DNA of 64,000 bases, from positions 1 through 64,000 of the forward strand of contig JBHLKM010000016.1 in the NCBI GenBank assembly GCA_048886685.1, read 5' to 3'. Numbering within the stretch: the first letter of the stretch is position 1; each line of letters opens with the position of its first letter. The translations under genes were made by a program, and so were the position numbers. The notes beneath the pieces are model-generated. The model saw only the letters and a program-made list of their open reading frames with translations. It was not told the DNA's origin and made no database searches. Shown piece after piece: positions 50,408 to 52,915 of this stretch. The stretch comes from Candidatus Hodarchaeota archaeon. Its GTDB lineage: Archaea > Asgardarchaeota > Lokiarchaeia > Sigyniarchaeales > SOKP01.

Positions 50408-50440
50408 AAAAAAAAATCTTCGTGAAAGATGCGTTTCACG
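50408..50440 (-). terminator. Hairpin plus poly-T, possible terminator of the pfk transcript
   Basis: Perfect inverted repeat CGTGAAA-N6-TTTCACG (50421-50440) followed on the minus strand by AAGA and T9. Confidence 0.4.
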
Positions 50441-50591: not shown

Positions 50592-51801
50592 CTATTTTTG
50601 CTTTGAAAGGTATCTAATTTTTACGAGTAAATCTCGAAGTTCCATTTTATCATTGTCAGATGTTATGTATTTCTTTTTTACTCCTTCTGAAAGCGGGATT
50701 GTTTCAATTTTATTTCCTTGGAGAGATACCATATTCCCAAATTTACCTTCTAAAACAAGTTTCATTGCTGCTAATCCAAACCTTAATCCTAAAATCCTAT
50801 CAAATGAATTAGGTGGTCCGGCACGCATGGTGTGACCAAGAACTACACTTCGACATTCGAAATCTACTCCATTTTTCTCAAATTCTTGTTTTAAATCGTC
50901 TCTTAAGTTTAATTCTTCAACAATTATTTGGGACATATTCAATTTTACTAATAATGGATTACCAAATGTATCCTTAGGTAATTTATCAATTGTTTCTTTA
51001 GATATGGTTTTAAAATCTCGGTTAAGAGATTCTAAATTCGGATAGGCTCCCTCTGATGTAGCAATTATATGATATTTATAGCCAGCATTAACTCTTTTTT
51101 TCAAAACATCAATAACATCTTTTTCTAAGTCAAATGGCGTTTCTGGGATTAATATTATATCTGCTCCAGCAGATATTCCGCTATACATTGTTAAAAAACC
51201 TGCATCTCTGCCCATTACTTCTACAACAAATACTCTTTGATGCGATCGAGCCGTGGTTGTAAGATTATCCATCGCGTTAGAGGCTAGTTGTGTCGAACTC
51301 CAGAAGCCAAACGTATAATGTGTTCCCTGCAGGTCATTATCAATAGTTTTTGGCACTCCTACTACTTTAGCATCAGCGAATCTATACAAATTATCAGCCA
51401 CTCCAAGAGTATCGTGTTCAGTTTAAAACAGAAGTTATTCTAAAACTCCACCGATAGCAATTAGAGCATCTATTCCTAATTCTTCAAACTTTTTGGTTAA
51501 TTCTTTAGCTTTTTCCTCTTTTGCACTTACTCCCTTAAATGGATTCGTCCTACTTGTATATAGGATAGTCCCCCCCACAGTATGTAGGTCATCATGTTCT
51601 GCTATATTAAGTGGAATTGTTTGGTTTTCCACAAATCCTTTCCATCCCTTAAGGATGCCAACACATTCAATCCCAGTATCATAAGCTTTAAGCATGATTC
51701 CATAAAGTACGGAATTTAAACCGGGACAGTGTACGACAGTTAAGGAAACCTTTAGACATGGCTCCGCCGCCCGTGAGAATTCCAACTTTTTTAATTGCTA
51801 T
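50592..51801 (-). CDS. pfkA: PPi-type 6-phosphofructokinase, three exons (51801-51762, 51730-51446, 51415-50592), 382 aa after splicing, probable ATA start
   Basis: Joined exons read IAIKKVGILTGGGDCPGLN...GGTILYTSR...IGGDDTLG...PKTIDND...EVMGR...LGH; GGDD plus PKTIDND indicate PPi dependence. Confidence 0.88.
51416..51445 (-). other. Putative BHB-type mRNA intron 2 of pfk (30 nt)
   Basis: Insert TTTTAGAATAACTTCTGTTTTAAACTGAAC splits GGA G^AC GAT and carries in-frame TAA; 9-bp inner hairpin; exon-exon helix TATCG/CGATA. Confidence 0.8.
51731..51761 (-). other. Putative BHB-type mRNA intron 1 of pfk (31 nt)
   Basis: Insert CCATGTCTAAAGGTTTCCTTAACTGTCGTAC splits GGA G^AC TGT and shifts the frame; central helix GCGG/TCGT with bulges AG^C and AC^A. 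Confidence 0.8.
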
Positions 51802-51935
51802 TTATAATCACCTTCATTAATTTTTATTTTTTTGACTAATTAATTAAGCCATTTTTGATTAAAAATGTTATTATGAAGTTATATTTAAAAAGATATAAAT
51901 GAAATTATCTTTCCATTCCTTTTTTTTTTAAAAAT

Positions 51936-52337
51936 CTATTCATTTTCATTATTTCCTAACCATTCTTTAAATGTTTTTTGAGGGATCATTTCCTGTATTG
52001 ATATACCTGTCTGTTCTTTAAATTGCTTTTCTATCTCCCTCGTCCATAGCTTCTTATCTATCTGATCATTCAGCTTTATTAAGACTATACCTCCTCTTGC
52101 ATCAAAAGCATCACGTTTAAATGAATCTCTTTGCCTTGTTTTGTATTTACTATGCCAATACATCTCCCAAAACTCATATAATACCTCATATTTCTTTCCA
52201 TTTATCAAAACACTGTTATATCCATCTACATGAGATCTCGGGTGAACTTTTTTATTCACTCCCTTAATTTTTATTTGATTTCCTACAATATTGCGTAAAT
52301 GTGTATGATCAAATTTTACGCCAAATATTTTTTCCAA
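51936..52337 (-). CDS. Small Vsr/PD-(D/E)xK-like endonuclease domain protein
   Basis: HVDGY...LYEFWEMYWH...RDSFKR...IVLIKL pattern resembling DUF559/Vsr-like nucleases. Confidence 0.55.
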   Translation of the reverse strand: MEKIFGVKFDHTHLRNIVGNQIKIKGVNKKVHPRSHVDGYNSVLINGKKYEVLYEFWEMYWHSKYKTRQRDSFKRDAFDARGGIVLIKLNDQIDKKLWTREIEKQFKEQTGISIQEMIPQKTFKEWLGNNENE

Positions 52338-52345
52338 TAGTAGGT

Positions 52346-52915
52346 TTATTCTGATTCTTTTTTTTCAAATTTTTCAAATTTATATTTTGATTTATCTTTT
52401 GGGATTATATAGCTCCCTCCTTCAGAATCAATAATTTTTAATGTAAATTCGAATTTTCCTTCTAATGCGTTTTTCAAATTATTTAAAAGATCTTCAATCT
52501 CAGGTATTTCTGGGTCTCCTTCTTTGAGATTCTTCCTATATATTGAAACGGCACTTTCAAATCTATATAAAATACCTTCTACATTAGTATAATAAAAATT
52601 GGCTCTGGGACCTGGTTCTACAATTAATTCGAGCTCAGGAATTTCTAATTTTCCTACAGGGGAACGGTAAATCTTTGATTTAAGGTCTTCTTCAGTTGTC
52701 ACTTTCAAGGTCATAATTCCTGGATCCATATTTGTTGTTAAAGGAATTACATCATTTTTATGAAAGCTGCAAGTATCGCATTCGAACTTCAATATGAGCA
52801 TCTTGTCTCCATCAGGTAAATCATAGACATTCTTAATGATGTCTATTGTGCCATTTTCACATGAGGGACATTTAAATGAATATAAAATTTCACTATTTTT
52901 TTTCTCAGTAGACAT
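52346..52915 (-). CDS. zpr1: ZPR1 zinc-finger protein
   Basis: CPSC...CDTC, IPEL.L..EPGP, TNVEG.L, D.EGGSYI. Confidence 0.9.
   Translation of the reverse strand: MSTEKKNSEILYSFKCPSCENGTIDIIKNVYDLPDGDKMLILKFECDTCSFHKNDVIPLTTNMDPGIMTLKVTTEEDLKSKIYRSPVGKLEIPELELIVEPGPRANFYYTNVEGILYRFESAVSIYRKNLKEGDPEIPEIEDLLNNLKNALEGKFEFTLKIIDSEGGSYIIPKDKSKYKFEKFEKKESE

What the first reader, a model, noticed from the sequence alone, without database searches (positions are those of the whole stretch)
51731..51761. pfk intron 1: 31-nt frameshifting insert in the GGGD loop
Minus strand reads ACGGGCG-GCGG-AG^C-CATGTCTAAAGG-TTT-CCTTAACTG-TCGT-AC^A-CTGTCCCG. Central helix GCGG/UCGU pairs at all 4 positions (two G-U) and both bulges are 3 nt. 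The inner hairpin has an AAGG/CCTT core; the exon-exon helix is imperfect. Unspliced translation ends at TAA after 37 codons. Splicing yields G-G-G-D-C-P-G.
Basis: partly seen in the sequence, partly recalled or inferred. Interest (0 to 1): 0.85.

Follow-up and report, generated by a model that had tools for sequence, protein, structure and literature searches.

The report
tRNA-type mini-intron in Asgard phosphofructokinase
The only phosphofructokinase gene of this Asgard (Loki-type) archaeon is broken by a 31-base insert (and a second, 30-base one) shaped like a tRNA intron; comparison with about 110 relatives says it must be cut out of the messenger RNA, and that it spreads together with a neighbouring selfish DNA-cutting gene.

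Summary
The insert is real: 31 nt (51731-51761, minus strand) inside the Asp codon (G^AC) of the GGGD motif of the genome's only PfkA-family gene. A second, 30-nt insert (51416-51445) splits the first Asp of GGDD. Removing both gives an intact 382-codon gene under purifying selection (dN/dS mostly 0.03-0.07). Thirty of 111 family genomes carry an insert at the same base (30, 31 or 32 nt; always lethal to the frame if kept). The bulge-helix-bulge central helix pairs in 107 of 108 cells, with exon-intron compensatory change. Single-sequence and consensus folding prefer a rival fold, and no RNA reads were available, so splicing is inferred, not seen. EndA (alpha and beta) and RtcB are present. 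A free-standing LAGLIDADG gene or remnant lies just upstream in 7 carriers and no non-carrier; 16 of 30 carriers (this genome included) and 0 of 80 non-carriers have the leader that goes with that gene; near-identical genome pairs differ by a short conversion tract around the intron. This points to collaborative homing. The papers searched report coding-sequence splicing in archaea only for cbf5. This scan has reported the same intron class, this pfk pair and the nuclease link before on other DNA.

The parts
51731..51761 (-). pfk intron 1, 31 nt, BHB type, between G and AC of the Asp codon of GGGD; shifts the frame if retained
51762..51801 (-). exon 1 (40 nt), from an ATA start at 51801; last six bases give the central-helix strand GCGG and bulge bases AG
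   Evidence: synonymous sites fixed in carriers
51446..51730 (-). exon 2 (285 nt), PFK profile positions 11-100
   Evidence: dN/dS
51416..51445 (-). pfk intron 2, 30 nt, in-frame stops, between G and AC of the first Asp of GGDD; 5-bp exon helix, 9-bp intron stem, central helix with a conserved G.A mismatch
   Evidence: (21 carriers, all with a stop)
50592..51415 (-). exon 3 (824 nt), rest of the PfkA-family enzyme with PKTIDND (PPi-type signature)
51807..51812 (-). Shine-Dalgarno-like GGTGAT, 5 nt before the ATA start
   Evidence: sequence; same arrangement with ATA/ATT in relatives
51799..51944 (-). leader of the type found directly behind the LAGLIDADG gene in G036 and G129: scar of the homing cassette
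   Evidence: 73% over 146 nt to G036, E 1e-18; hits only carriers
51936..52337 (-). 133-aa C-terminal remnant of a ~600-aa endonuclease-like protein (Vsr/EDxHD-like); full copies sit directly behind the pfk 3' end in other genomes
52346..52915 (-). ZPR1-like gene, the conserved upstream neighbour that abuts pfk (90-235 nt) in non-carriers

Best explanation
The insert is a protein-spliced bulge-helix-bulge intron of the pfk pre-mRNA. Shown: the sequence can form the motif, the motif is kept by selection across genera, the insert always destroys the frame, the gene is otherwise healthy and single-copy, and the cell encodes a two-subunit EndA and RtcB. Inferred: EndA cuts after AG at the 5' junction and after AC at the 3' junction, RtcB-type ligation joins G to AC and rebuilds the Asp codon; intron 2 is removed the same way, so the mRNA needs two splicing events. 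How it spreads (inferred, about 0.7): a free-standing LAGLIDADG endonuclease inserted 130-160 nt upstream cuts intron-less pfk alleles at or near the GGGD codons; repair copies the intron, a few flanking codons and often the nuclease cassette with a new leader and start codon; the intron shields the donor. The nuclease gene is later lost, as here, leaving the intron and the leader.
For: Same insertion base in 30 of 111 genomes, lengths 30/31/32 nt, all ending in an early stop. Central helix 107/108 paired; G.U/G-C exchange and C-G to U-A across the exon-intron pair; first bulge base A in 27/27 carriers against 12/23 non-carriers; third position of the paired Gly codon C/T in 27/27 against 8/23. 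dN 0.03-0.12 against dS 0.7-1.7 in exons 2 and 3. One full PF00365 gene. EndA with Tyr/His/Lys motif plus a His-less paralogue, and RtcB. LAGLIDADG gene or remnant upstream in 7 carriers, 0 of 81 non-carriers, and in 2 of 2 carriers, 0 of 2 non-carriers among independent loci. Cassette-type leader 16/30 against 0/80. G125 and G123 differ at 3% of codons overall but at 11 of the first 21 codons plus the leader and the intron. Cross-genus synonymous identity among carriers peaks only at the six codons at each intron (0.85 and 0.97 against 0.39-0.40). Carriers are scattered over the exon-3 tree as sisters of non-carriers. Three more inserts of this form checked in the same genome.
Against: No spliced read, cut site or protein was seen. 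The MFE and the RNAalifold consensus favour an exon-exon fold; in this genome the central pair has probability 0.01 in the computed ensemble. The central-helix compensatory change occurs in three genomes of one intron subfamily and may be one event. The exon-exon helix at intron 1 is weak, and in the main subfamily a second register (7 bp) can form. Genomes are related, so counts overstate independence. Nuclease target site and activity are untested; 14 carriers show no cassette trace; pairs of genomes do not by themselves give the direction (gain or loss) of the conversion.
Confidence: 0.88

Rival explanations
1. The insert is a parasitic or accidental insertion that kills the gene (pseudogene), helped along by a mutated ATA start.
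For: Frameshift and stop; ATA instead of ATG; a broken nuclease remnant upstream; an orphan fragment of pfk elsewhere.
Against: dN/dS mostly 0.03-0.07; no other lesion in any full-length spliced carrier; only PfkA gene in the genome; ATA/ATT starts behind GGTGAT recur in 7 genomes and two metagenome loci; structure conserved with compensatory change.
Confidence: 0.04
2. The ribosome gets past the insert by programmed frameshifting or hopping; no splicing.
For: A hairpin follows the GGA codon, as at known bypass sites (own knowledge of T4 gene 60); archaeal intron predictions have been confused with frameshifts (PMC2738675).
Against: Lengths 30, 31 and 32 need three different shifts; the Asp codon is split between the exons and cannot be made by a hop; no matching GGA landing codon; a frameshift would put ten residues in the phosphate-binding loop; pairing between exon and intron 3' end is what is conserved.
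Confidence: 0.03
3. The intron is removed at RNA level, but not by EndA at the canonical register (other nuclease or other fold), or it is excised from DNA in part of the population.
For: Computed folds prefer another structure; an alternative 7-bp register exists in the main subfamily (slide -3).
Against: Only the canonical register is kept by all subfamilies; G.U tolerance argues for RNA, not DNA; boundaries cannot slide and still give the Asp codon; two EndA subunits present.
Confidence: 0.05
4. On origin only: the intron is ancestral to the family and was lost many times; the nuclease gene is an unrelated passenger in an intergenic hotspot.
For: Two or three diverged intron subfamilies imply age; this LAGLIDADG family occurs at many other loci (57 of 133 genomes); 14 carriers have no cassette trace.
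Against: Nuclease never upstream of an intron-less pfk; the cassette leader is shared across three genera only by carriers; close non-carrier sisters lack the carrier-type flanking codons, which precise loss would leave.
Confidence: 0.25

Closest known systems
BHB intron of the cbf5 pre-mRNA in Crenarchaeota (PMC2738675; PMC7714728 names it the only coding-region case)
   Same: ORF-less intron of tRNA-intron size (cbf5: 16-44 nt), BHB at the junctions, placed between the first and second base of a conserved Asp codon, host with hetero-oligomeric EndA, patchy distribution.
   Different: Other phylum (Promethearchaeota relative); a central metabolic enzyme; two introns in one mRNA; several other genes of the same genome affected; linked to a free-standing nuclease, whereas cbf5 intron origin is unknown; splicing shown for cbf5, not here.
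Asgard tRNA introns (bioRxiv 10.64898/2026.10.13.758758)
   Same: Same lineage, same motif and enzyme architecture, repeated gains.
   Different: That study covers tRNA genes only (no mention of mRNA or cbf5) and found no general route of arrival; here the host is an mRNA and a candidate route is visible.
Collaborative homing in phages (free-standing endonuclease beside an ORF-less intron; T3/T7-like phages and a cyanophage, as described in PMC10448857)
   Same: Nuclease gene outside and next to the intron; intron and nuclease co-inherited; short conversion tract around the insertion site.
   Different: Phage cases use self-splicing group I introns (own knowledge); here a 31-nt protein-spliced intron in an archaeal chromosome, with a LAGLIDADG enzyme; cleavage not tested.
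Archaeal rRNA BHB introns that encode their own homing endonuclease (PMC2738675)
   Same: BHB intron plus homing nuclease in archaea.
   Different: The nuclease lies inside the intron there and the host is rRNA; here it is outside, 130-160 nt upstream, and the host is an mRNA.
Haloferax HVO_1309 5' UTR intron (PMC7714728)
   Same: EndA-processed BHB intron in an mRNA.
   Different: Untranslated region; does not interrupt a reading frame.

Membership tests
Archaeal BHB (EndA-spliced) intron | 4-bp central helix between exon -6..-3 and intron -6..-3 | tested here: met
   4/4 here; 107/108 across 27 distinct orthologues; one compensatory pair
Archaeal BHB (EndA-spliced) intron | Two 3-nt bulges, cut after the second base, first base usually A | tested here: met
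   AG^N in 27/27; A first in 23/27 of 3' bulges; boundaries fixed by the Asp codon. Cut itself not observed.
Archaeal BHB (EndA-spliced) intron | Intron-side outer helix (h') | tested here: met
   Pairs +2:-7 and +3:-8 kept in 93% of cells with C-G/U-A and A-U/U-A swaps; inner stem C-G/U-A swap
Archaeal BHB (EndA-spliced) intron | Exon-side outer helix (h) | tested here: inconclusive
   One closing pair in 27/27, then a bulge or shift; relaxed form. Intron 2 has a full 5-bp helix.
Archaeal BHB (EndA-spliced) intron | BHB is the fold the RNA adopts | tested here: inconclusive
   MFE in 4 orthologues, 0.6-4.7 kcal/mol above MFE in the others, 3.6 here; RNAalifold gives a rival fold
Archaeal BHB (EndA-spliced) intron | Host encodes splicing endonuclease and ligase | tested here: met
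   Two PF01974 genes (catalytic-type and His-less), one RtcB
Archaeal BHB (EndA-spliced) intron | Precise removal from RNA in vivo or in vitro | not testable with these tools
   No RNA run listed
Collaborative homing unit | Free-standing homing endonuclease gene next to the intron-bearing gene | tested here: met
   LAGLIDADG_3 over cut-off in G022, G036, G018, G153; L178, L179. In this genome only its leader remains.
Collaborative homing unit | Co-inheritance of intron, flanks and nuclease (conversion tract) | tested here: met
   7 of 30 against 0 of 81; leader 16/30 against 0/80; bounded tract G125/G123; kinship inflates the counts
Collaborative homing unit | Nuclease cuts the intron-less allele at the insertion site and spares the intron-plus allele | not testable with these tools
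   Needs a cleavage assay
PfkA family, PPi-type signature | PFK domain with GGDD and PKTIDND | tested here: met
   PF00365, best TIGR02483 PFK_mixed, contiguous profile coverage 11-103 and 105-323; donor specificity itself rests on established knowledge, not tested
EDxHD/Vsr-like homing endonuclease (133-aa remnant) | Similarity to the catalytic domain of a known member | tested here: inconclusive
   Profile hit to PDB 3R3P 'Mobile intron protein', E 0.0032; DUF559-like atlas neighbours at 0.91; no Pfam hit; model too poor to use

The most novel reading that the evidence does not exclude
In Lokiarchaeia, mRNA splicing by the tRNA machinery is routine: central genes such as pfk carry more than one 30-nt protein-spliced intron in catalytic codons, and these ORF-less introns invade by DNA homing driven by free-standing endonucleases (LAGLIDADG upstream for intron 1, possibly an EDxHD-like enzyme downstream for intron 2). 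This would give the archaeal relatives of eukaryotes multi-intron mRNAs and a route of intron gain independent of group II introns.
Probability: 0.6. Interest if true: 0.9.

Novelty: new variant of a known kind. Interest (0 to 1): 0.8.

Why it matters
Published evidence found here limits splicing inside an archaeal coding sequence to one gene, cbf5. A glycolytic gene with two such introns, kept across five genera and joined by at least three more genes in the same genome, means that mRNA splicing is a normal step of gene expression in a lineage close to the root of eukaryotes, and that gene callers truncate or miss these genes (here the called ORF starts at 51401 and lacks both catalytic loops). 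The nuclease link offers a testable answer to an open question that a 2026 preprint left open for Asgard tRNA introns: how ORF-less BHB introns arrive. It could also couple sugar metabolism to the capacity of the tRNA-splicing machinery, though no regulation is shown.

Tried and rejected
RNA evidence: no RNA holder was listed for window:50500-51900; this is no evidence either way, and read laying could not be used. Single-sequence folding and RNAalifold did not return the BHB. A first genome-wide motif scan did not beat slid controls (200 against 157 and 193 hits; a missing filter let intact genes through); a stricter scan separated only the top few (score 32 or more: 3 against 0, 0, 0, 1) and missed purA and cobO, so no genome-wide count is given. 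The label-change table of the tree compared the wrong groups and was not used; only the topology was. A Fisher test on the leader counts was computed with a mistyped table and overstates because of kinship; not used. The tblastn for pfk paralogues used a wrong frame; one search replaces it. AlphaFold on the 133-aa remnant gave pLDDT 51, so no fold search was run; Pfam, NCBIfam and PHROGs gave no useful hit for it. The sigma-70 promoter scan is at chance level and does not suit archaea. Other copies of the LAGLIDADG family were listed but their neighbours were not tested for introns. Literature searches found no paper on Asgard coding-sequence introns; the library lacks most subscription papers.

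Full report
Observation. On the minus strand the pfk gene reads LTGGG, then 31 extra bases (51761-51731), then the rest of the Asp codon and CPGLN. A second insert of 30 bases (51445-51416) sits inside the first Asp codon of GGDD. Both fall between G and AC. Deleting both gives one open frame of 40 + 285 + 824 nt from an ATA at 51801 to the stop at 50592; exons 2 and 3 cover consecutive parts of the PFK profiles. Kept, insert 1 leads to TAA after 37 codons. Folding alone does not support it: the MFE is a different, exon-exon fold (z 0.56), and forcing the BHB costs 3.6 kcal/mol.

Host. The window is G000:C16:1-64000 of a 4.4-Mb, 31% GC genome with many intron-bearing tRNA genes. A 91%-identical pfk lies on a contig titled Promethearchaeota archaeon, so the host is a Loki-type Asgard archaeon. 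It has two EndA-domain genes, one with the catalytic Tyr/His/Lys motif and one without the His, as in an (alpha beta)2 enzyme, and one RtcB. It has one full PfkA-family gene.

Orthologues. Of 111 scored loci in the family, 30 carry an insert at exactly the base of insert 1 (five genera) and 21 of 113 at the base of insert 2; 13 carry both. Insert 1 is 30, 31 or 32 nt long and always gives an early stop; insert 2 always holds an in-frame stop. With the inserts removed, no carrier shows another lesion except contig ends. Against seven relatives this genome's exons 2 and 3 have dN 0.03-0.12 and dS 0.7-1.7. The gene is alive, so the inserts must be bypassed somehow.

Structure by comparison. Across 27 distinct insert-1 junctions the central helix pairs in 107 of 108 cells; slid by one or two bases, 29-50. 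A slide of -3 gives 87, because the main subfamily repeats the pairing strand; only the canonical register is shared by all subfamilies. On a 22-sequence alignment the named structure has 93.8% of cells paired, 19 cells changed on both sides and a covariation score of 0.33, against 31-48% and at most 0.12 for slid partners. The exon-intron pair C-G becomes U-A in G036, G042 and G153 through a synonymous exon change; this may be one event. Synonymous exon positions that take part in the motif are fixed in carriers and free in non-carriers. RNAalifold still prefers the exon-exon fold, whose pairs show no two-sided change. Insert 2 has a full 5-bp exon helix, a 9-bp intron stem and a central helix with a conserved G.A mismatch. 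Hopping or frameshifting cannot rebuild a split Asp codon or serve three lengths; G.U tolerance points to RNA. The best reading is EndA cleavage and RtcB ligation. This step is inferred: no RNA run was listed.

How it moves. In non-carriers a ZPR1-like gene abuts pfk (78 of 81 within 90-235 nt). In carriers this gap is often opened (12 of 30 over 500 nt or no ZPR1 in reach). In G018, G022, G036, G129 and G153 it holds a two-motif LAGLIDADG gene ending 130-160 nt before the intron, in G042 and G145 a remnant; no non-carrier has one. Two further metagenome/genome loci with the intron have the nuclease, two without do not. The 146 nt before the start codon of this genome match the leader behind the nuclease of G036 (73%, E 1e-18) and those of other carriers in three genera; 16 of 30 carriers and 0 of 80 non-carriers have such a leader. 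Carriers are spread over the exon-3 tree, often as sisters of non-carriers, and across genera they share synonymous sites only in the six codons at each intron. G125 and G123 differ at 3% of codons overall, but at 11 of the first 21 codons, the leader, the start codon and the intron: a bounded conversion tract. This is the pattern of collaborative homing described for phages (PMC10448857). Kinship inflates the counts, direction is not proven, and cleavage is untested, so I put this part at about 0.7.

This genome has lost the LAGLIDADG gene at this place. Between ZPR1 and the leader sits instead a 133-aa remnant (51936-52337) of a ~600-aa protein, whose full copies lie head-on directly behind the pfk stop in three of four contigs with a neighbour and in G142, an intron-2 carrier. 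Its profile weakly matches PDB 3R3P 'Mobile intron protein' (E 0.0032; from my own knowledge the catalytic domain of the EDxHD-family homing endonuclease I-Bth0305I). So pfk seems to be the target of two nuclease families; a tie of the second to intron 2 is only a lead.

Not a single case. In the same genome a blind scan put a 31-nt BHB insert in a proteasome-assembly-chaperone gene first (G000:C2:6605-6635); four relatives have 30-31 nt at that base and 16 have none. Two candidates from earlier scan notes, in purA and cobO, were checked: each deletion restores the family motif and has a 4/4 central helix.

Comparison with the known. The cbf5 intron of Crenarchaeota is the same kind of object, also between the first two bases of a catalytic Asp codon (PMC2738675), and a 2020 paper names it as the only coding-region case, adding a Haloferax 5' UTR intron (PMC7714728). 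A 2026 preprint on Asgard tRNA introns does not treat mRNA and leaves the route of arrival open. I found no paper on Asgard coding-sequence introns or on free-standing nucleases that move BHB introns. Earlier notes of this scan report the same class, the same pfk pair in another genome and the nuclease link at other genes; they are unchecked notes, and the evidence above was computed here.

Verdict. Real feature; BHB mRNA intron with confidence 0.88; new variant of a known kind (cbf5-type intron, here doubled in a metabolic gene of an Asgard archaeon and tied to a free-standing homing nuclease); interest 0.8.

Noticed in passing
window 51799-51812 (minus): pfk starts at ATA behind a strong GGTGAT; ATA/ATT/ATC starts recur in six other intron-1 carriers and in L178 and L179, ACG in two non-carriers (G106, G108). 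The odd start comes with the cassette leader.
   Followed up: partly
window 51936-52337 (minus): Truncated EDxHD/Vsr-like endonuclease remnant, placed upstream and co-directional here, while full-length copies lie downstream of pfk and head-on (L064, L065, L066, G142).
   Followed up: partly
L172 (G000:C5:244014-244245): Orphan 232-bp copy (95% identical) of the end of exon 2, intron 2 and 14 nt of exon 3; the intron is retained and equals the G008 variant, not this gene's own: a piece of a foreign allele integrated elsewhere.
   Followed up: partly
L169 (G000:C2:6605-6635, minus): 31-nt BHB insert after codon 10 of a proteasome assembly chaperone gene (TIGR00161-like); 30-31 nt in G012, G013, G014, G023 (in frame and stop-free in two), absent in 16 relatives.
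   Followed up: yes
G000:C2:178201-178230 and G000:C17:95367-95399 (minus): BHB-shaped inserts in purA (30 nt, again G^AC of an Asp codon) and cobO (33 nt, Walker A), both with 4/4 central helix; orthologues not compared.
   Followed up: partly
window 50592-51801: The spliced enzyme has GGDD and PKTIDND, the signature of PPi-dependent PfkA enzymes.
   Followed up: no
G000:C16:73828-74412 and G000:C20:41722-42396: Two distant members of the same free-standing LAGLIDADG family in this genome; the family has matches in 57 of 133 family genomes. Neighbouring genes not tested for introns.
   Followed up: no
L066:908-1837 (minus) and intron-2 carriers G126, G127, G129, G137, G142, G151: After GGDD these alleles read T-L-S-V instead of T-L-G-V; L066 is intron-less, lies beside the EDxHD-like gene and is diverged right after GGDD. 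Possibly a conversion tract or resistance by sequence change.
   Followed up: no
window 50421-50440: 7-bp inverted repeat with T-rich tails on both strands between pfk and the downstream MFS transporter gene; terminator-like.
   Followed up: no
G000 whole genome: ARAGORN finds only about 35 tRNA genes, most with introns or odd calls, and a tRNA-Sec on C1.
   Followed up: no
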